A DNA stretch of 64,000 nt. Source: Escherichia phage vB_EcoS_ESCO30. Both the position numbers and the translations under genes were made by a program. This document shows, in pieces, positions 1 through 45,916 of the stretch; position 1 is the stretch's first letter, and every line of letters begins with the position of its first letter. The notes under the pieces were generated by a model that saw only the letters and a list, made by a program, of their open reading frames with translations, made no database searches and had not been told where the DNA came from. The stretch lies in sequence record NC_106513.1, one strand, 5' to 3'.

Positions 1-1313
1 GCTTCTGCATCTGTAGAGTCCGCTCCAGTATCTGTCAATTTACCTGTTGGAGTTAAGCCAACATAATCAAACAGAAGAACACGCAGCTGCTTAACAGAGT
101 TTGGGTTAAACGCCTCGTTCTGGTCTTTTTCTAGCTGAACGACTTCTGGATAAGTATACAGTTTCTCACGAGCCTTATTCAGGTTATGGGTTAACTGGTA
201 CTGTGCTTCTTTCAAGCGATCAATAGAAATTGGTACACCACGATCTTCAACACGTTGCAGGAACACGCAACCAGGCATCAAAACATCGTAGTATAGACTG
301 CAAAGTTTTTCATTCTTCTCAATTTTTGGTAAGAAGAAGTTGTGCAAACGTATGGTTGCATCGGTATCTTTTGCAGCGTAAGGCCACATAATATCAAACG
401 GAATTAAATCATAGGTGAAATCTTCTTTCTTGATTTTATGTGCTTTGCAGTAATCATCCTTGAACTTATCTAGTTCAAAGTCATAGTCACCCATATCGGT
501 GTACTTCATTGCTAGAGATTTCAAGCCGTGAGTACCACGACGTTCATCTAGAACATAATGCTGCAACATTGTATCATGGAGCCTGCGTTCTTTATGTGCT
601 TTATCAAAAGTAAGTCCCAGATGGTACTTATAAAAGTGCATATCAAACTTCAAGTTGTGAAAAACAATAGTGTGGTTTTCACTATCCAGAATTTTCTGGA
701 GATAATATACTGCAACCTCTGTGAGACAATCAGAATCGATATACACACCCTGATACTCTTGGTGAGACATAGAAACACCAAGCAGATAACCATCTCGACA
801 GTATAGTGCTGAGGTTTCGGAGTCGAATGCTACAGGTCCGATAACCATATTATACACCATCTTGATATATTCTTCCGCCTCGTCAGGGTCAGTAATAGGG
901 CGGTAATCACCAGCTTTTGCAATCTTCTCGCGACCATTGATAATATCGTGGATATTCTCTACTGTTGCATCAAAAACTGGTTTCATTTCAGGCTTAAAGT
1001 GTAACTGGGCTGGGCTGATACTCGCAATCCAGTTAGCATATCCATTATACTCTACACGTTTACCAGTATAGTCACCAATGCCTTTCTTACCTGCGAAGTA
1101 CAGGAAAGGTTCAGCACCTACTAGTATAACAAAATCGTAATCATTCGGATCAAATGGGTTTTCTGGTGTTCCAATAGTAATATGCTTTTTAAGCAAACGA
1201 CCAGATAACTTCTCGTTACACATATGGAATACATCAACTTCCTCGCCGTATAGCTGGAAATGTTTATCGTAACGAGTGTTGTTTAGCGCTTTATCAACTA
1301 CTGCGATTTTCAA
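1..1313 (-). CDS. DNA polymerase, family A (T5-like), N-terminal part with 3'-5' exonuclease domain; gene continues beyond window start
   Basis: Minus-strand frame open from TTG at 1311-1313 (GAGGAG SD at 1321-1326) to window edge; translation starts MKIAVVDKALNN and contains FDSETSALY exonuclease motif; absent from ORF track because truncated. Confidence 0.8.
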   Translation of the reverse strand, partial: MKIAVVDKALNNTRYDKHFQLYGEEVDVFHMCNEKLSGRLLKKHITIGTPENPFDPNDYDFVILVGAEPFLYFAGKKGIGDYTGKRVEYNGYANWIASISPAQLHFKPEMKPVFDATVENIHDIINGREKIAKAGDYRPITDPDEAEEYIKMVYNMVIGPVAFDSETSALYCRDGYLLGVSMSHQEYQGVYIDSDCLTEVAVYYLQKILDSENHTIVFHNLKFDMHFYKYHLGLTFDKAHKERRLHDTMLQHYVLDERRGTHGLKSLAMKYTDMGDYDFELDKFKDDYCKAHKIKKEDFTYDLIPFDIMWPYAAKDTDATIRLHNFFLPKIEKNEKLCSLYYDVLMPGCVFLQRVEDRGVPISIDRLKEAQYQLTHNLNKAREKLYTYPEVVQLEKDQNEAFNPNSVKQLRVLLFDYVGLTPTGKLTDTGADSTDAE

Positions 1314-2793: not shown

Positions 2794-4262
2794 ATATCGC
2801 TGGCCTGTTCACCTGTTGAATTTTCAGTTTTGTCTTTCTTAGCACGTTTAGGTTGAGCCGGCTTATCCTTCTCAATAGGGATAACGAACTCAGCTTCCAT
2901 TTGAGATATATCTTCCATTGCTAGGTTGGTAGTGTTATCCATTCGCAGAGTTTCCCAGTTCATCTTAGGCATAAACTTCACGCTATCAGAAGAACGAGTT
3001 TTAACGAAGTCAAACATAATAGCACCTTGGCCATTATCAGCTTTTGCAGCATTAAGATTAGCAGCCATGTCTGCAGAATCAAGAATCCCCTTTGACATAC
3101 GTGTTCTACCATCTTGATCGATCTGGTAAGGAGCTACGCCAGCCACGTTATGTTTCTGGCAGATAGATTTGAAAGACGAGCTAACAACCATCTGTTCTTT
3201 CCAGTCATACATATCAATGGTTTTAGAATCTGGAAGTCGGGTTTGGTTAATATAGTCCAGTAAAGCTACTGTAACTTTATCACCATATCTAGCAACTAAT
3301 TTATTTAGTTCTACGTCAACTGTTGTAATGGACAGCTCAGGATCATAAACAATAATCATAGGAGTATGTAGTTCATATCCCTCTATTAGCTTACTCTCCA
3401 TATCGTAGAAATCACTCATCTTAGCCATTGTGTACTGTTTAACGAAGTTATCAAAAAGCTCTTCACCTCCATTAAACATTCTAGCTCTAGTTCTGGCCAA
3501 TCTCAACAGAGCTGCACCTTCTAGAGTATTATTACGCATTGCTAATGCTGATACACCAGCTAACATGGCTAGATTACGTCTAAATACTTCATGTTCTTTC
3601 ATCTCAATTGAGAAGTATGGAGCAATATCTCCATTCAAATATTGCTGAACCTGTATGTTTGAACAGATAATGGATTTACCAGTACCACGCCAACCACCAA
3701 GCAGTAACGTTTCTGTGCGAGCTAAACCGATTTGAGCGTCGAACTCATTACAAATACCAAGAGCGATTAAGTTCAGTTTGGTATCTTCTTCTCTCTGGAA
3801 AATACGCATGTTATCTGCGTTGAATACTTTTCCAGTATTCGTTACTTTCTCTTCTAATTTTAAGTGAAGGGAGGCAACTCGGTTGAGAATTTCTCCCTGA
3901 TCCAGCATTGTTAAATCTTGAAGCACGTCTGTTTCTAGAAGCTTCAGGAATAAATCCTGTGTATATTCGGCTTCTAGGACTTCAAGTGCCTGTTCCATGC
4001 TCACTTCTGGAATTTGAGTGTTAGCTAAGACGACTAGAGCTTGAGAAAGGCGGGCGTTCCTATTAGCTTCAAGCATAAGTGCGTCAATGGACGGCATTGT
4101 GTTATATTTTTTATAATAATTCTGGACGGCTTGGTAAATTGAGGAGAAAGCGTCATTAAAATGATCTTTATGCAGTTTTGAGAATGTTTCCAATGCTATT
4201 TGCTTCTGTTCGGAAGCTAGAAGCATCTTCAACACTACAGCTTGCACGTTAAACAAGGTCAT
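2790..4262 (-). CDS. replicative DNA helicase (DnaB-like)
   Basis: Walker A GGWRGTGKS; ATG at 4260-4262 with AAGGAG SD; ORF track extends to 4313 but that start sits inside a GC hairpin. Confidence 0.7.
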   Translation of the reverse strand: MTLFNVQAVVLKMLLASEQKQIALETFSKLHKDHFNDAFSSIYQAVQNYYKKYNTMPSIDALMLEANRNARLSQALVVLANTQIPEVSMEQALEVLEAEYTQDLFLKLLETDVLQDLTMLDQGEILNRVASLHLKLEEKVTNTGKVFNADNMRIFQREEDTKLNLIALGICNEFDAQIGLARTETLLLGGWRGTGKSIICSNIQVQQYLNGDIAPYFSIEMKEHEVFRRNLAMLAGVSALAMRNNTLEGAALLRLARTRARMFNGGEELFDNFVKQYTMAKMSDFYDMESKLIEGYELHTPMIIVYDPELSITTVDVELNKLVARYGDKVTVALLDYINQTRLPDSKTIDMYDWKEQMVVSSSFKSICQKHNVAGVAPYQIDQDGRTRMSKGILDSADMAANLNAAKADNGQGAIMFDFVKTRSSDSVKFMPKMNWETLRMDNTTNLAMEDISQMEAEFVIPIEKDKPAQPKRAKKDKTENSTGEQASDI

Positions 4263-5911: not shown

Positions 5912-5940
5912 ATTATAGCAAGTATTTAAGCATTTAGCAA
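5912..5940 (-). promoter_or_regulatory. sigma70-type promoter (minus strand) for ligase C-terminal subunit gene
   Basis: minus-strand -35 TTGCTA (5935-5940), 17 bp spacer, -10 TATAAT (5912-5917). Confidence 0.6.
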
Positions 5941-6083
5941 CTACAATTTTAACTAACTTTGCTTACCCTCGCCATAACTTTCTATCCCTCAACTGAATGA
6001 TAATAGTATATACCTAAGCGGCGAAAATGTCAATAACCACTTTATAATTCCGATATGGTAGATGGGTAGCAAAGGGTTATGTA

Positions 6084-7055
6084 TTAATCGTATACTCTCT
6101 CTACTATGCACGGGATTACACCACCAGCACGAATCACTCGAATCTGGCAACCGATCTCTAGATCAAGAGAGTTAATATAATCAACGTTATTAAGAGTCGC
6201 TTTAACAATTGTAGCATCATCAATAATTACCGGTTCGAAATAACCAACTGGAGTTACTTTACCAGAAGCCCCTACCTGCCATTCAACTTTAGTAAGAGTT
6301 GTAATCTCGCCTTCTTCATCCTCTTTAATAGCGAATGCCCCGCGAGGGAATTTATTAGTCCAGCCTTCTCGGAAGAATTTGTTGTTGTCATTAATACGAA
6401 CAACTTTACCATCCGTCGGAATCCATTTAAAGAAGGAACGCACATTAACAACTGTTAAGAAGTTCTCATTCTCTAGCCAGAGCATATCTTTTAAATACGA
6501 TTCTGTAATACCTACAGATTCAGCAGAACATTGGATACCGTATGCAACGAAGATTAAACCACCTTCCCCGATACGTTGTGCGAAATCATCGCTATCTTTG
6601 AGGTTAATAGCACCAGAGGCAAAGTTACGTTTATTTTCTACTTCTTTTGTAATTAGAACTTCACCAGTGATTTGAGTAGGTACTTTTTGGGAAATCTTTT
6701 TAGGGATGTTCAGCAATCTTACGTTGCTTGTGACATCATTCCCTAGAATACCATTACCACGAGTTAGCGCTTGAACAAATTCGCCATTAATATATAACAG
6801 AGAAATCGCACAACCATCTAACTTATCAGTTTCTACCTGACCTAATGGGTTAAACGGAGGTTTATCTCCACGATTATAATAAACTTTCTGTAAAGAATAC
6901 ATACGATACAGATGTGGAATATCACCCTTAGGCCCGATCTCTTCCTCTAATGGGAAGCGTTTTACCAGGCGATCATATTCTTCATCAGAGATTAAAGACA
7001 TGCCTTGATAATATGCTTCTTGACAGCGTTTAATAAATTCTTTTACATTGGTCAT
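6084..7055 (-). CDS. NAD-dependent DNA ligase, N-terminal adenylation subunit
   Basis: KxDG adenylation motif (TDKLDGCAIS) and OB-fold-like region; separate ORF from C-terminal half. Confidence 0.75.
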   Translation of the reverse strand: MTNVKEFIKRCQEAYYQGMSLISDEEYDRLVKRFPLEEEIGPKGDIPHLYRMYSLQKVYYNRGDKPPFNPLGQVETDKLDGCAISLLYINGEFVQALTRGNGILGNDVTSNVRLLNIPKKISQKVPTQITGEVLITKEVENKRNFASGAINLKDSDDFAQRIGEGGLIFVAYGIQCSAESVGITESYLKDMLWLENENFLTVVNVRSFFKWIPTDGKVVRINDNNKFFREGWTNKFPRGAFAIKEDEEGEITTLTKVEWQVGASGKVTPVGYFEPVIIDDATIVKATLNNVDYINSLDLEIGCQIRVIRAGGVIPCIVERVYD

Positions 7056-15760: not shown

Positions 15761-16583
15761 ATCTGTTTCCCCTCATCTCCGGTACATAAGGTCTACCCTC
15801 TAGATGGGCTTCTACACGAGCAATAAAATCAGGGTCACTGAAAGCATCTACCGCACCTTTACTCCAGTAAGGGATACCGCGTTCTTCCAACTGGTACATC
15901 TCACTACGAGTCATACCTTGATAGCCTGGTTCCGCCGCTAGGGCACTATCGTAGTAGTTAACTACCATAAGTTTCGCAGCAGTACGATTAAGAGTAGGAA
16001 ATAGTTCCCAGTAGAAGTTAATTACTTGGTTAGAGCAACCAACTACAACGATCATATCTTGACTGGTAATACCATCAAAAATATTGTACATTTCTGCGTA
16101 CGCTGGAGCATGCTCACCAAAGAAGATTACATTAGGTTTAACCCATTTATAATCATCTGGGTCAATAGAGTTATACCCAACATCAATAACTCGTTTATTA
16201 CTACTATTGTAGCTGTCAGCTACAACAACCTCTTTTAAATATCCGTGAATGTGCAGAATGTCACTATGTGGAACACCAGCACGCTCAATAAGATCATCAA
16301 CGTTAGTAGTCAAATTTACTACTTGACCCGGATATTTCTTATACCATTCACCAATACGCAGGTGTGCAAGATTGGGTTCAACAGTTTCTAACTCTTCACG
16401 ACGTTTGTTGTAAAACGTGTGGGTTTTATGATAAAAATTACCACGAAAGGCATGAATATTACATATCTCTTCTAAGTCATAATCATCCCACAATGCTTTA
16501 CCACTAGCAGTATCAGTACGGAAGGCTCGTACACCACTTTCAACACTCAAACCTGCACCGCTAATAATAATTAATCTACGCAT
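15747..16583 (-). CDS. SIR2-family (sirtuin-like) NAD-binding protein
   Basis: GAGLSVESGVRAFR, TTNVDDL, LHIHG, NVIFFGE and VVVGCS motifs in sirtuin order; no zinc-ribbon Cys pairs. Confidence 0.7.
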   Translation of the reverse strand: MRRLIIISGAGLSVESGVRAFRTDTASGKALWDDYDLEEICNIHAFRGNFYHKTHTFYNKRREELETVEPNLAHLRIGEWYKKYPGQVVNLTTNVDDLIERAGVPHSDILHIHGYLKEVVVADSYNSSNKRVIDVGYNSIDPDDYKWVKPNVIFFGEHAPAYAEMYNIFDGITSQDMIVVVGCSNQVINFYWELFPTLNRTAAKLMVVNYYDSALAAEPGYQGMTRSEMYQLEERGIPYWSKGAVDAFSDPDFIARVEAHLEGRPYVPEMRGNRYVHS

Positions 16584-19104: not shown

Positions 19105-19954
19105 TGATTATTTCCTCGATAAACTTTATAGCTACTTTTGGTTCAATATTGAAGAATTCCGTAGCGCCGTCAAAATCTTTGTACTGGCAATTCTGCTCTT
19201 TAAAGTAGTTATGGGCTAATTTTTCTATTCGAACTGCACTACTATATTCTCCAATTTCAAATACTTTAATTATTTCCAAATCAGTAAGGTGGCTACTAGA
19301 TCTAATTTGTAGAAGCCTACGCTCTGGGTTGTTAGATCTACCTATTTTAACCCCATGTGAGGGGCTATGCATAATATATATCCTAGTACTTTCTAAATCT
19401 CTATAATTACAGTAAGGACAACCGTTCCCTCTTAATACAGATCCTGGAGTAGCTTCCCACCTATGCCCTGCACCACAAAGAAAGGCGGTCTTAGTATTCG
19501 CGTTACTATACTCACCCACTATTCTGATATTTCTGGCAGCAAGACGATCATTTATAGTATTAACACTAAGTTTTTGTTTATTAGTAGCACAAGATGGGCA
19601 GCCACTACCTCTATTAATTATACTATTAAGTGTAGTAGCCCACTCATGACCACAAACACACCTAAATTTAGTATTTATATCGGCACTATTTTTATAGCCG
19701 TTCAACAATGTAATACCTCTGTCCTGTAATACAGTATTAATTCTATCAATATCTAGTTTACGGCTACTAATAGAGCAAGTAGGACAATTGGTCTTTCCAT
19801 TCCTAATAGCGTCAAATTTAGCTGTCCATTGGTGACCGTATTCACACTGATACGTATGCCTATACCTAGAATTTTGATATGGCTTATCCACCATAGTAAA
19901 ACCACGCTCGGCTAGGCATTTATCTACTTCTTCTTGAGTTAATTTTTTCGGCAT
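19091..19954 (-). CDS. T5orf172/GIY-YIG-like putative endonuclease with three zinc-ribbon repeats
   Basis: Three C..GH.W...G.GCPxC repeats, then IYIMHSP..GVKIGRS..P..RL motif; ATG at 19952-19954 with GGAGAAG SD; track start is GTG at 19996. Confidence 0.6.
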   Translation of the reverse strand: MPKKLTQEEVDKCLAERGFTMVDKPYQNSRYRHTYQCEYGHQWTAKFDAIRNGKTNCPTCSISSRKLDIDRINTVLQDRGITLLNGYKNSADINTKFRCVCGHEWATTLNSIINRGSGCPSCATNKQKLSVNTINDRLAARNIRIVGEYSNANTKTAFLCGAGHRWEATPGSVLRGNGCPYCNYRDLESTRIYIMHSPSHGVKIGRSNNPERRLLQIRSSSHLTDLEIIKVFEIGEYSSAVRIEKLAHNYFKEQNCQYKDFDGATEFFNIEPKVAIKFIEEIINDRE

Positions 19955-39996: not shown

Positions 39997-40184
39997 AACG
40001 ATTAGTTAGATTTAAGTGTTGTGGTTCCGAGCACATTTTCACACATCTTCGTGAATTTAAAATGTGCGATTGTGGTAAATCAGGCTATGACTCAGGAGAT
40101 GGGTTCTACACCCGTACTCTAGGGAACTTCAATGATCTAGAATTTGAAGATCTCGAAAAACAAGATAAATCGACCGTTGGCTGA
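39993..40184 (+). CDS. hypothetical Cys-containing protein
   Basis: 63-aa ORF with CCGS...CDCG Cys pairs. Confidence 0.45.
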   Translation: MKRLVRFKCCGSEHIFTHLREFKMCDCGKSGYDSGDGFYTRTLGNFNDLEFEDLEKQDKSTVG

Positions 40185-40246
40185 ATGGCTTAGGCGAAGG
40201 ATTGCAAATCCTTTTTATGTGAGTTCAAATCTCATGCGGTCGTCCA
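40171..40246 (+). tRNA. tRNA-Cys (anticodon GCA)
   Basis: Acceptor CGACCGT/GCGGTCG, anticodon stem AAGGA/TCCTT with loop TTGCAAA, T-arm GTGAG-TTCAAAT-CTCAT, CCA encoded. Confidence 0.7.
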
Positions 40247-40398
40247 ATTTGCTGAAAGAATTGTTAAATCAATTCAGGCACGCGTAGGAACACTGTCTCC
40301 GTAATTGAAAGATGAGGCACGGTTTGGAGAGGTATGCCGCTACACGCTACGGTGCTAACTCCGTCTAGGTGAAAATCCTAGTCAGCAATATAAATTTA

Positions 40399-40481
40399 GG
40401 GTCGTTAGCCAAGCGGTTTGGCGGTGGACTGTTAATCCATGTCGAAAGACAACGTAGGTTCGAATCCTACACGGCCCGCCA
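40399..40481 (+). tRNA. tRNA-Asn (anticodon GTT) with extended variable arm
   Basis: Acceptor GGGTCGT/ACGGCCC, D-stem GCCA/TGGC, anticodon loop CTGTTAA, T-arm GTAGG-TTCGAAT-CCTAC, CCA encoded. Confidence 0.65.
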
Positions 40482-41441: not shown

Positions 41442-41679
41442 ATTTATATAAATTGATGAGGAGAAATCCTCATCATAGTTCACTAAGGTATTAGCTCGAC
41501 CTAGGACTGGCTGCCAAAAAGCACGATCCCTACTATTTGGGAGAAGTTCTAGATTAGTCCACTAGATTCAGCGGCAACTGAATAGTGTATTGGGTTTGCG
41601 AGATGACGCAGTTCCTTCCGCTCGAAGCGAAGGTGCTGTAGTTACGCCGAGCTAATAGCCTTAGTAAACTAAAGAATTT

Positions 41680-42822: not shown

Positions 42823-43189
42823 AAATTCTTGGAATATGCCGGAATTGGTAGACGGGACTGCCCAATAGGTTTACTAGGAACATCCACTCCTAGAAATATA
42901 CCTTAAAAGCGGTTGAGTTAAATGGTCTAACTCATGAAGGTTCAAGTCCTTCTGCTTCTTGATACATCTATGGCTCAAAGTGTAACGGTGCTATTTGATG
43001 CTCTTGGAAAGACTTTCCCGACAGGCGTTCGGGGGTAAGCTTCTGAGGCTAGAATAGAAGAGTTTCTGAGAGCCGCCACAATTGAAAATTCGTACTCGTC
43101 TTGAGCTGCGTGCAATAGGAGATAACTTGATTAGTATTCTAGAACATGCTAATTGAGGATGGTTTCGCTAACCCTGCGAGTTTTCAATT

Positions 43190-45547: not shown

Positions 45548-45916
45548 ATGAAAGCATATCAAAATCTTAAATCTGGCGTAATTAACCTTGTTCATGAAAA
45601 TCAGATTATTCAGCTATACTCCGACAATGGTGAACTTAAACAGAAAGTTCTAGTTGAAGATCTAGAAGGTATCACACCACAATTCGATCCAGAAGCCTTC
45701 CGTGAAGTCAAAGTGGAAGTCGCCCCTCAAATCGAAGGTGGTCAGCACCTAAATGTCAATGTATTAAGCCGTGATCAGCTTTTGGATGCACAGAAACATC
45801 CTGAAAAATACCCTCAATTAACTATCCGTGTTTCAGGGTACGCTGTACGTTTTAATGCACTGACTCGTGAACAGCAGAACGACGTTATTAGTCGTACATT
45901 TACTCAGGCGATGTAA
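45548..45916 (+). CDS. grcA: autonomous glycyl-radical cofactor (GrcA/YfiD-like)
   Basis: C-terminal [11 protein letters not shown]...[21 protein letters not shown]...[12 protein letters not shown] matches the glycyl-radical domain pattern. Confidence 0.8.

What the first reader, a model, noticed from the sequence alone, without database searches (positions are those of the whole stretch)
40249..40389. tRNA-like frame enclosing about 110 nt: perfect 7-bp acceptor pairing plus 3' T-arm
TTGCTGA (40249-40255) is the exact reverse complement of TCAGCAA (40382-40388), and immediately 5' of the latter is a T-arm-like hairpin CTAGG-TGAAAAT-CCTAG. Together they mimic the acceptor/T-arm minihelix of a tRNA, but the interior is far too long for a normal tRNA and has no clean anticodon arm. 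Candidates are an interrupted or degenerate tRNA, or a tmRNA-like structured RNA.
Basis: seen in the sequence. Interest (0 to 1): 0.55.

Follow-up and report, generated by a model that had tools for sequence, protein, structure and literature searches.

The report
Unannotated tRNA-shaped RNA gene in phage
A 140-base stretch between two tRNA genes of a T5-like phage is a conserved non-coding RNA gene that keeps the outer frame of a tRNA but carries a branched structured domain in place of the anticodon loop; it adds a new family to the old, still unexplained class of small RNAs found in phage tRNA clusters.

Summary
TTGCTGA (40249-40255) pairs with TCAGCAA (40382-40388), and the hairpin CTAGG-TGAAAAT-CCTAG (40365-40381) abuts the latter. 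Such a frame alone is not rare: about 1.2 are expected per window by chance. This one is real for other reasons. It fills a tRNA slot in a 22-tRNA array of a T5-like phage, 2 nt after the CCA of tRNA-Cys and 10 nt before tRNA-Asn. It recurs in 218 phage records, including unrelated Klebsiella myoviruses (Mydovirus), where homology stops at the ends of the frame. In 13 distinct sequences, 15 of 37 proposed base pairs change on both sides while staying paired (99.4% of cells paired).

The fold is a cloverleaf: a 7-bp acceptor-like stem, a D-like hairpin, a 5-bp stem in the anticodon-stem position, an 8-nt variable region and a T-like arm. A 71-nt, nearly invariant three-way-junction domain replaces the anticodon loop.

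It is not a tRNA, an intron-containing tRNA, a tmRNA or any Rfam family. It has no sequence homologue among the small RNAs annotated in T4 or T5.

Most likely it is a stable tRNA-mimic RNA cut out of the tRNA transcript by RNase P. Expression, processing and function are untested.

The parts
40249..40389 (+). Whole element: a 140-nt tRNA-shaped RNA gene plus the discriminator-like T at 40389
   Evidence: Model R1 matches 40247-40392 at 184.6 bits. BLAST homology to Sugarlandvirus and Mydovirus ends at about 40244/40240 and 40390. No ORF spans it.
40249..40255 (+). P1 5' strand (acceptor-like stem, 7 bp) UUGCUGA
   Evidence: Pairs with 40382-40388. Four of 7 pairs change on both sides, and 100% of cells are paired.
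40258..40275 (+). P2, D-like hairpin: GAAUUG / loop UUAAAU / CAAUUC. It follows a 2-nt AA linker, as in tRNA positions 8-9.
   Evidence: Five of 6 pairs change on both sides. The loop has no G18G19 equivalent.
40277..40287 (+). P3 5' strand: GGCAC (P3a, in the anticodon-stem position), bulged G40282, CGUAG (P3b)
   Evidence: Pairs with 40347-40356. P3a has 2 pairs changed on both sides (C-G to G-C, A-U to U-G in Mydovirus); P3b is invariant. This helix replaces the GGCA/UGCC helix of the single-sequence MFE fold, which is not conserved in Mydovirus.
40295..40318 (+). P4 hairpin: GUCUC / 14-nt loop / GAGGC. The loop core UGARAGWU is conserved.
   Evidence: Three of 5 pairs change on both sides. 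The U-G to U-A change in metagenome variant L061 fits this register.
40320..40339 (+). P5 hairpin: CGGU / 12-nt purine-rich loop UUGGAGAGGUAU / GCCG
   Evidence: The stem is invariant, so covariation neither supports nor contradicts it. It is predicted by RNAalifold.
40340..40346 (+). Junction strand CUACACG, invariant in all clades
   Evidence: Alignments A1, A3 and A6. It is part of the 19-nt invariant block ATGCCGCTACACGCTACGG.
40347..40356 (+). P3 3' strand CUACG GUGCU
   Evidence: helix 3.
40357..40364 (+). Variable-region-like linker AACUCCGU. CUCC (40359-62) may form a pseudoknot with GGAG (40326-29) of the P5 loop.
   Evidence: One compensatory event (A-U to G-C in Mydovirus); the outer pair is lost there. 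Tentative.
40365..40381 (+). T-like arm CUAGG / UGAAAAU / CCUAG, stacked directly on P1
   Evidence: One pair changes on both sides (A-U to U-A in Mydovirus). The loop is invariant apart from one record with UGAAAAC.
40382..40388 (+). P1 3' strand UCAGCAA
   Evidence: helix 1.
40171..40246 (+). Upstream tRNA-Cys(GCA); its encoded CCA ends 2 nt before P1
   Evidence: ARAGORN, Rfam, sequence.
40399..40481 (+). Downstream tRNA-Asn(GUU), starting 10 nt after the element
   Evidence: ARAGORN, Rfam.

Best explanation
Positions 40249-40388 on the + strand are a gene for a small non-coding RNA of about 140 nt with the outer architecture of a tRNA. The frame has a 7-bp acceptor-like stem, a 2-nt linker, a D-like hairpin, a 1-nt linker, a 5-bp stem where the anticodon stem would be, an 8-nt variable region, and a 5-bp/7-nt T-like arm stacked on the acceptor stem. 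The anticodon loop is replaced by a 71-nt, almost invariant three-way-junction domain (P3b, P4, P5).

Shown here: the structure, its conservation, its strand, its modular boundaries, and its placement in a tRNA slot.

Inferred: it is transcribed by host RNA polymerase as part of the early polycistronic tRNA transcript. RNase P recognises the acceptor/T-arm minihelix and cuts at 40248/40249, which also frees the 3' end of tRNA-Cys. RNase P cleavage at tRNA-Asn followed by 3' exonuclease trimming then defines the 3' end. The product accumulates as a stable RNA, like T4 species 1/2 and the T5 RNAs annotated in AY692264.

More speculative: the tRNA frame provides processing, stability and access to tRNA-binding machinery, while the invariant inner domain is the working part. 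That part would bind or decoy a host or phage factor, for example a tRNA-directed nuclease or enzyme, or the ribosome via its exposed GGAG-rich loop.
For: Location: the element lies on the same strand as, and inside, an array of 22 tRNA genes, 2 nt after a CCA and 10 nt before the next tRNA.

Non-coding: no ORF spans it.

Conservation: 218 phage records hold it, whereas 468 hold the surrounding region. It occurs in E. coli/Salmonella T5-like phages, Sugarlandvirus, Yersinia phiR201 and, at 75% identity, in seven unrelated Mydovirus (Vequintavirinae) records.

Modularity: the upstream neighbour differs between groups (tRNA-Cys, tRNA-Asn, tRNA-Ser), yet the element always starts 2-3 nt after a CCA, except in BIS47, which has a different upstream junction. 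Homology stops at the stem ends.

Covariation on 13 distinct sequences: 99.4% of cells are paired and 15 of 37 pairs change on both sides. Slid controls give at most 2 such pairs, and 0 of 500 shuffles reach the observed values. Per helix the counts are P1 4/7, P2 5/6, P3 2/10, P4 3/5 and T arm 1/5.

Strand: the invariant G.U pairs (40277/40356 and 40323/40336), and further G.U pairs in other clades, would be C.A mismatches on the other strand.

Precedent: T4 rnaC (139 nt) and rnaD, and T5 RNA1, RNAI, RNAIII, RNAIV, rna2 and RNA2H, are annotated small RNAs inside tRNA clusters. T5 RNA1 and rna2 fold with an acceptor stem plus a T arm around long inserts. Four of the T5 RNAs have homologues elsewhere in this window. 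RNase P is known to separate closely spaced polycistronic tRNA transcripts in E. coli (PMC2190699, from its abstract).
Against: There are no expression or end-mapping data for this element. No CCA is encoded, unlike the neighbouring tRNAs, which weakens RNase P binding and requires extra 3' processing. The first base is U, not the G that RNase P prefers.

The T loop (UGAAAAU) and the D loop lack the canonical tRNA elbow residues, so an L-shape is not guaranteed.

The covariation comes from only three to four lineages, on an alignment fitted to the model. P5 and P3b are invariant and therefore unproven.

Single-sequence folding is only marginally better than shuffles (z = -1.8).

The element is dispensable in some relatives. 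T5 has a T5orf172-domain gene in its place, and one phage has lost the 5' half.

Nothing computed here points to a specific target.
Confidence: 0.65

Rival explanations
1. A cis-acting processing or stability element only. The tRNA-shaped fold would act as punctuation that helps mature or stabilise the neighbouring tRNAs in the polycistronic transcript, and the released RNA would have no role of its own.
For: It sits exactly in a tRNA slot, with tRNA-like spacing to both neighbours. It can be lost without losing the flanking tRNAs.
Against: Other tRNAs in the same array are separated by 6-8 nt without any such element. Punctuation would not need a 71-nt inner domain with a 19-nt invariant block conserved across two phage families. 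The element keeps its identity while its neighbours change.
Confidence: 0.15
2. A decaying tRNA pseudogene that picked up an insertion in its anticodon loop and now has no function.
For: The complete cloverleaf frame, with tRNA-like linker lengths (2, 1, 8 and 0 nt), suggests descent from a tRNA gene. The element is absent or truncated in some relatives.
Against: Compensatory changes occur in five helices, with 99.4% of cells paired. The inner domain is near-invariant between phage families that share no flanking homology. A neutral remnant would not show this.
Confidence: 0.07
3. A DNA-level element, such as a homing-endonuclease target or recombination site of the mosaic tRNA region, conserved for that reason rather than as RNA.
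For: The tRNA regions of T5 and T4 carry homing endonuclease genes, and T4 SegB recognises the T-arm motif of tRNA genes (PMC2330249). In T5 a T5orf172/MUG113-domain gene occupies the site, and about 13 nt of the element's 5' end remain beside it. Recombination junctions coincide with the element's borders.
Against: DNA target sites do not require compensatory, strand-specific changes that tolerate G.U pairs across five helices. This idea can explain turnover of the element but not its internal conservation pattern.
Confidence: 0.05
4. An intron-containing tRNA gene that yields a functional tRNA after removal of about 63 nt, for example an amber suppressor with anticodon CUA.
For: With thresholds relaxed to 80-90% and introns allowed, ARAGORN models 40249-40389 as tRNA-Pyl(cta) with a 63-nt intron.
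Against: Nothing is found at default stringency. The Mydovirus homologue gets a different, incompatible model and the Sugarlandvirus homologue none. The resulting loop CGCUACG lacks U33 and R37, and the D and T loops are non-canonical. From general knowledge: 63 nt is too short for a group I intron, and bacteria have no protein-based tRNA splicing. The 'intron' is also the most conserved part.
Confidence: 0.04
5. A miniature tmRNA-like or peptide-coding RNA. A GGAG-rich loop precedes ATG 40334, which opens a 12-codon ORF (MPLHATVLTPSR) ending at the TGA in the T loop.
For: The mini-ORF is open in the window and in Mydovirus, and a Shine-Dalgarno-like GGAGAGG/GGGAGG lies just upstream.
Against: ATG is AAG in three independent Sugarlandvirus isolates, Boggle, Shiner and Sealy. 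Three of the four codon differences between clades change the amino acid, and helix compensation explains three of the four differences. The spacing between the Shine-Dalgarno-like sequence and the ATG is very short. There is no G3.U70 and no CCA, and ARAGORN's tmRNA mode and Rfam are negative.
Confidence: 0.03

Closest known systems
T4 species 1 and species 2 RNAs (rnaC, 139 nt; rnaD, 119 nt)
   Same: They are small RNA genes on the tRNA strand inside a phage tRNA cluster. rnaC is almost the same size as this element and has a T arm (CCGGG-UUCGAAU-CCCGG) next to a terminal stem. Their function is still unknown (PMC3014915; PMC9697503).
   Different: There is no detectable sequence or model similarity: blastn gives E > 1, and R1 finds nothing in the T4 locus. 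rnaC has a canonical T loop and a different inner architecture of long hairpins rather than a three-way junction. T4 belongs to a different phage family.
T5 small RNAs annotated in AY692264 (RNA1 144 nt, RNAI 107 nt, RNAIII 106 nt, RNA2H 172 nt, RNAIV 103 nt, rna2 125 nt)
   Same: They come from the same phage group, the same tRNA region and the same strand, and fall in the same size range. RNA1 and rna2 fold as an acceptor stem plus a T arm around long inserts. RNA1, RNAI, RNAIII and RNA2H have homologues in this very window at 42828-42968, 42972-43078, 43083-43188 and 41489-41660.
   Different: None is homologous to this element. T5 itself lacks the element. In wild-type T5 the site holds ORF065, a T5orf172-domain gene, and in T5 st0 the region is deleted. 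The element is not annotated in any of the records listed.
Canonical tRNA (Rfam RF00005)
   Same: It shares the four-way cloverleaf with tRNA-like linker lengths, a 7-bp acceptor stem, a 5-bp stem at the anticodon-stem position, and a 5-bp/7-nt T arm stacked on the acceptor stem. It occupies a tRNA slot in the array.
   Different: It is 140 nt long and has no anticodon loop. The D stem has 6 bp and its loop lacks GG. The T loop is UGAAAAU. No CCA is encoded. Rfam and ARAGORN find nothing at normal thresholds.
tmRNA (tRNA-like domain plus a coding segment)
   Same: It combines an acceptor/T-arm tRNA-like frame with a non-tRNA interior, and it contains a short ORF.
   Different: It is far smaller than tmRNAs as I recall them. 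It has no G3.U70 and no CCA, the ORF start is not conserved, and ARAGORN and Rfam are negative.

Membership tests
tRNA (RF00005) | Reaches the detection threshold of tRNA covariance or heuristic models | tested here: not met
   ARAGORN default finds no gene at 40247-40398. Rfam finds no tRNA match there at E<=1 over 18 kb or at E<=10 over 161 nt.
tRNA (RF00005) | 7-bp acceptor stem with a 5-bp/7-nt T arm stacked directly on it | tested here: met
   Pairs 40249-55/40382-88 and 40365-69/40377-81 are contiguous, and both are kept by covariation.
tRNA (RF00005) | 5-bp anticodon stem closed by a 7-nt loop with U33 and a purine at 37 | tested here: not met
   The stem GGCAC/GUGCU is present, but it encloses 71 nt. 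Even ARAGORN's relaxed 'spliced' loop is CGCUACG.
tRNA (RF00005) | Conserved elbow residues: D-loop G18G19 and T-loop U54-U55-C56 | tested here: not met
   The D-like loop is UUAAAU and its variants, and the T-like loop is UGAAAAU.
tRNA (RF00005) | 3' CCA encoded, as in the other tRNA genes of this array | tested here: not met
   The sequence after the stem is T-ATA. tRNA-Cys and tRNA-Asn on either side end in encoded CCA.
Intron-containing tRNA | A consistent exon model (same anticodon, same intron position) in all homologues | tested here: not met
   ARAGORN in intron mode finds nothing at default stringency. When relaxed, it gives Pyl(cta) in the window, a different frame (Cys(aca)) in Mydovirus, and none in Sugarlandvirus.
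tmRNA | Detection by tmRNA models, G3.U70 alanine identity, and a conserved tag reading frame | tested here: not met
   ARAGORN tmRNA search is negative even at 70% threshold, and Rfam is negative. Pair 3 is G-C or A-U. The mini-ORF ATG is lost in three isolates.
Small stable RNAs of phage tRNA clusters (T4 rnaC/rnaD, T5 RNA1/I/III/IV/2/2H) | Non-coding gene of about 100-170 nt inside a phage tRNA cluster, on the tRNA strand | tested here: met
   compared with the annotations.
Small stable RNAs of phage tRNA clusters (T4 rnaC/rnaD, T5 RNA1/I/III/IV/2/2H) | Accumulates as a discrete stable RNA in infected cells | not testable with these tools
   No transcript data are available here. For T4 RNAC and RNAD this was shown by Northern blot (PMC9697503).
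Small stable RNAs of phage tRNA clusters (T4 rnaC/rnaD, T5 RNA1/I/III/IV/2/2H) | Sequence or structure homology to one of the described members | tested here: not met
   blastn with 7-nt words gives only chance-level hits. Model R1 finds nothing in T4, T5 st0 or T5 wild-type loci, nor elsewhere in the window. It is the same kind of RNA but not the same family.
Any Rfam 15 family | A covariance-model match | tested here: not met
   The only hit is a 15.9-bit chance match to HIV-1_SL3 on the opposite strand. Rfam also finds nothing in the Mydovirus and Sugarlandvirus copies.

The most novel reading that the evidence does not exclude
The element founds a new class of phage tRNA mimics. In this reading a tRNA chassis supplies RNase P processing, stability and access to tRNA-binding proteins. 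It carries an exchangeable effector domain, the invariant three-way junction with an exposed GGAG-rich loop and a possible internal pseudoknot. The module moves horizontally between unrelated virulent phage families because it neutralises or decoys a host factor, such as a tRNA-targeting defence nuclease, a tRNA-modifying or processing enzyme, or the ribosome's anti-Shine-Dalgarno site. This would finally give a function to the 50-year-old class of unexplained small RNAs in phage tRNA clusters.
Probability: 0.15. Interest if true: 0.8.

Novelty: new member of a known kind. Interest (0 to 1): 0.47.

Why it matters
Phage tRNA clusters have been known since the 1970s to encode extra small RNAs (T4 species 1 and 2, several T5 RNAs). 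None of them has a known function. This element adds an unannotated family that is not in Rfam.

Compared with what these tools showed for the classic examples, it has three advantages. Its fold is backed by covariation. It has an almost invariant inner domain. It also occurs in two unrelated phage families with different neighbours, which argues for selection on the RNA itself.

It is present in easily available E. coli K-12 phages, with copies identical or 99.4% identical in Escherichia phages IrisVonRoten and HildyBeyeler. About half of the T5-like records that share the surrounding region lack it, so natural plus/minus comparisons and clean deletions are feasible.

Phage tRNAs have recently been shown to counter tRNA-cleaving defences: PARIS (PMC11464382) and retron Eco7 (as cited in PMC10644984). 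A tRNA-shaped RNA with no anticodon is therefore a reasonable candidate for a related role, but that is untested.

In practice, 218 phage records should carry a misc_RNA feature here. In several of them spurious 'hypothetical protein' or 'DNA ligase' CDS overlap the element.

Tried and rejected
- Known families. Rfam was run at E<=1 on 18 kb and at E<=10 on the 161 nt, plus on two homologous loci, and gave nothing.
- ARAGORN. Default, intron, relaxed and tmRNA modes gave nothing or mutually inconsistent models.
- Homology to known phage small RNAs. No match to T4 rnaC/rnaD or to the six T5 misc_RNAs by blastn or by model R1. No paralogue in the window.
- Host origin. No match in 5,426 complete E. 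coli genomes. A pattern scan of 185,579 species genomes gave 23 loci, none matching the model.
- More distant relatives. Three IMG/VR pattern scans and one metagenome scan returned only T5-like, Sugarlandvirus-like and Mydovirus copies, plus chance hits in protein genes. Phylogenetic depth therefore stayed at three to four lineages.
- Single-sequence MFE fold. Its GGCA/UGCC helix was rejected because Mydovirus cannot form it. It was replaced by P3a, which covaries.
- Pseudoknot ACGG x CCGU. There is no two-sided change, 6 of 13 outer pairs are broken, and it conflicts with P5. It was rejected in favour of the still tentative GGAG x CUCC pairing.
- Mini-ORF or tmRNA-like coding. Rejected because of the ATG to AAG change in three isolates.
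- Promoter and terminator scan. Counts around the element are at chance level, so it says nothing about an independent transcription unit.
- Literature. Searches for T5 or T5-like small RNAs found no description of this element. A 2023 catalogue of about 10,000 viral structured-RNA candidates (PMC10690425) could not be checked for it.

Full report
**Context.** The window is a T5-like phage of the family Demerecviridae. A 901-nt stretch around the finding is 98.3% identical to Escherichia phage slur09 and matches 468 phage records. ARAGORN finds 22 tRNA genes on the + strand between 32.8 and 45.3 kb, and Rfam confirms them. The finding lies between tRNA-Cys (40171-40246) and tRNA-Asn (40399-40481). 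In the 152 nt between them neither ARAGORN nor Rfam reports anything, and no ORF spans the stretch.

**The observation.** The sequence is as described. TTGCTGA at 40249-40255 is the reverse complement of TCAGCAA at 40382-40388, and CTAGG-TGAAAAT-CCTAG at 40365-40381 abuts the latter. I scanned the window for the same kind of frame and found 8, against 1.2 expected from shuffles. Three of the 8 are class II tRNAs and one is this element. A single such frame could therefore arise by chance, and the case has to rest on other evidence.

**Conservation and modularity.** The 161 nt around the element match 218 phage records.
- Most are E. coli, Salmonella or Shigella T5-like phages at 97-100% identity.
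- About 25 are Klebsiella Sugarlandvirus phages, plus Yersinia phiR201, at 88-90%.
- Enterobacter phage KKP_3711 matches at 90%.
- Seven are Klebsiella myoviruses of the genus Mydovirus (Vequintavirinae) at about 75%. These are unrelated to T5.

In none of the records listed is the element annotated as an RNA. Some carry spurious CDS over it, including one labelled 'DNA ligase' in BIS47.

The upstream neighbour is tRNA-Cys in the window, tRNA-Asn in Sugarlandvirus and tRNA-Ser in Mydovirus. The element nevertheless starts 2-3 nt after that tRNA's CCA, and BLAST homology ends at the two ends of the 7-bp stem. BIS47 is an exception to the CCA spacing, because it has a different upstream junction at the element's 5' border.

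**Structure.** RNAalifold on seven sequences replaced the central helix of the single-sequence fold with a long-range helix, GGCAC-g-CGUAG / CUACG-GUGCU. I wrote a full model with these parts:
- P1, 7 bp, acceptor-like
- AA linker
- P2, 6 bp, D-like hairpin
- A linker
- P3, 5 + 5 bp with a bulged G
- P4, 5 bp, with a 9-14-nt loop
- P5, 4 bp, with a 12-nt purine-rich loop
- the 7-nt junction CUACACG
- an 8-nt variable-like linker
- the T-like arm, 5 bp with a 7-nt loop

From this I built covariance model R1 and realigned 13 distinct sequences to it.

| Measure | Result |
|---|---|
| Cells forming standard pairs | 99.4% |
| Pairs with changes on both sides | 15 of 37 |
| Same count with partners slid by 1-3 columns | 0-2 |
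| Shuffles reaching the observed values | 0 of 500 |
| Two-sided changes in P1 / P2 / P3 / P4 / T arm / P5 | 4 of 7 / 5 of 6 / 2 of 10 / 3 of 5 / 1 of 5 / 0 of 4 |

P5 is invariant, so its pairing is unproven. Examples of the changes: the acceptor stem reads UUGCUGA/UCAGCAA, UUACUGA/UCAGUAA and UUGUCUA/UAGACAA in three clades, and the T stem reads CUAGG/CCUAG or CUUGG/CCAAG. Invariant and variable G.U pairs fix the + strand as the functional one.

There are two caveats. The changes come from only three or four lineages, and the alignment was fitted to the model.

A pseudoknot between GGAG in the P5 loop and CUCC in the variable linker has one compensatory event and stays tentative. An alternative pseudoknot has none.

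**What it is not.**
- It is not a tRNA. The T loop, the D loop and the absence of an anticodon loop and of an encoded CCA all fail.
- It is not an intron-containing tRNA. ARAGORN in intron mode finds nothing at default stringency. When relaxed, it gives a 'tRNA-Pyl(cta) plus 63-nt intron' in the window, a different frame in Mydovirus and nothing in Sugarlandvirus. That output does independently draw the same cloverleaf frame I derived.
- It is not a tmRNA.
- It does not encode a conserved peptide. A 12-codon mini-ORF (MPLHATVLTPSR) preceded by GGAGAGG is open in two clades. Its ATG is AAG in Boggle, Shiner and Sealy. Three of its four codon differences between clades change the amino acid, and three of the four lie in covarying stem positions.
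- It is not of host origin.

**What it is like.** T4 carries rnaC (139 nt) and rnaD in its tRNA cluster. The T5 st0 record AY692264 annotates six misc_RNAs in the tRNA region. T5 RNA1 and rna2 fold as an acceptor stem plus a T arm around long inserts. The window itself contains homologues of T5 RNA1, RNAI, RNAIII and RNA2H.

The present element is homologous to none of these and is missing from T5 itself. In wild-type T5 the CCA of tRNA-Cys is followed by AATTACTAAAGGAAAG, which looks like a remnant of the element's first 13 nt. Next comes ORF065, a T5orf172/MUG113-domain protein, which runs into a different tRNA-Asn gene. In one IMG/VR phage the 5' half of the element is deleted.

The element is therefore accessory and subject to the cassette turnover typical of these tRNA regions, where homing endonuclease genes are common (PMC2330249). 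The roles of T4 RNAC and RNAD were still described as unknown in 2010 and 2022 (PMC3014915; PMC9697503).

**Mechanism.** Shown here: a conserved, strand-specific, modular RNA structure with a tRNA-like outer frame, sitting in a tRNA slot.

Inferred from established tRNA processing: the element is co-transcribed with the early tRNA operon. RNase P cleaves at 40248/40249 using the stacked acceptor/T-arm helix. RNase P is known to separate closely spaced polycistronic tRNAs in E. coli (PMC2190699). The 3' end is then formed by RNase P cleavage at tRNA-Asn and exonuclease trimming.

Speculative: the near-invariant three-way junction is an effector domain that binds or decoys a host or phage factor. 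The fact that phage tRNAs counter tRNA-cleaving defences makes a decoy role attractive (PMC11464382; retron Eco7 as cited in PMC10644984). Nothing computed here points to a particular target.

**Verdict.** This is a real, unannotated structured RNA gene. It is a new sequence family of a known but functionally unexplained kind. It is moderately interesting and readily testable in available phages.

Noticed in passing
window 41489-41660, 42828-42968, 42972-43078, 43083-43188 (+): Homologues (94-100% identity) of the T5 small RNAs RNA2H, RNA1, RNAI and RNAIII annotated in AY692264. Like the studied element, they lie in gaps of the tRNA array that ARAGORN and Rfam leave empty. RNAIV and rna2 of T5 have no full homologue here.
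   Followed up: partly
window 40399-40481 (+); L001 1947-2031: The tRNA-Asn(GUU) next to the element is 83 nt long, with what reads by eye as a long, class II-like variable arm (GTCGAAAGACAAC), which is unusual for tRNA-Asn. Mydovirus VLCpiM5a also has an 85-nt tRNA-Asn, whereas T5 has a different, shorter tRNA-Asn gene.
   Followed up: no
L009 (T5 wild type AY587007) about 5928-6467, minus strand: In T5 the element's slot holds ORF065, a T5orf172/MUG113-domain protein (Pfam E = 5.5e-16 and 2.5e-12). About 13 nt resembling the element's 5' end remain right after the CCA of tRNA-Cys, which suggests replacement by a mobile-gene cassette. The tRNA coordinates in this record also appear shifted relative to the sequence.
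   Followed up: partly
L019 (IMGVR_UViG_2706796127_000001) about 926-1009, minus strand: A T5-like genome in which only the 3' 84 nt of the element survive. The junction falls at window position about 40303, and the upstream side carries small ORFs and tRNA-Met/tRNA-Ser instead of tRNA-Cys. This is a natural deletion variant.
   Followed up: partly
L068 (Klebsiella phage Shiner) 459-529 (+), same in L069: Between the element and tRNA-Cys, Sugarlandvirus phages have a further stretch of about 70 nt that folds as an 8-bp terminal stem plus a T-like hairpin (CCGG-UGGAACU-CCGG). It may be another degenerate tRNA-like RNA. ARAGORN and Rfam are negative, and the folding z-score is -1.5.
   Followed up: partly
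window 3703-3846, 16159-16329, 45750-45902 (+); 19516-19656 (-): Four further frames of the type '7-bp stem plus abutting 5-bp/7-nt hairpin' turned up in my scan. About 1.2 are expected by chance, and they were not examined.
   Followed up: no
phage records OR847827.1, PP355768.1, MG969413.1: Some database records holding the element look problematic. There is a 1,517-bp 'Listeria phage' fragment with a 100% identical copy (OR847827.1). There is a 261-kb 'Straboviridae' Klebsiella phage, AM_K6, with a Sugarlandvirus-type tRNA region, possibly a mixed assembly (PP355768.1). An 'UNVERIFIED' Salmonella phage record has indels inside the element (MG969413.1).
   Followed up: no
L002 (Klebsiella phage BIS47) 1538-1759, minus strand: A 73-aa CDS annotated as 'DNA ligase' overlaps the element and the adjacent tRNA on the opposite strand. 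It is almost certainly a mis-annotation.
   Followed up: no
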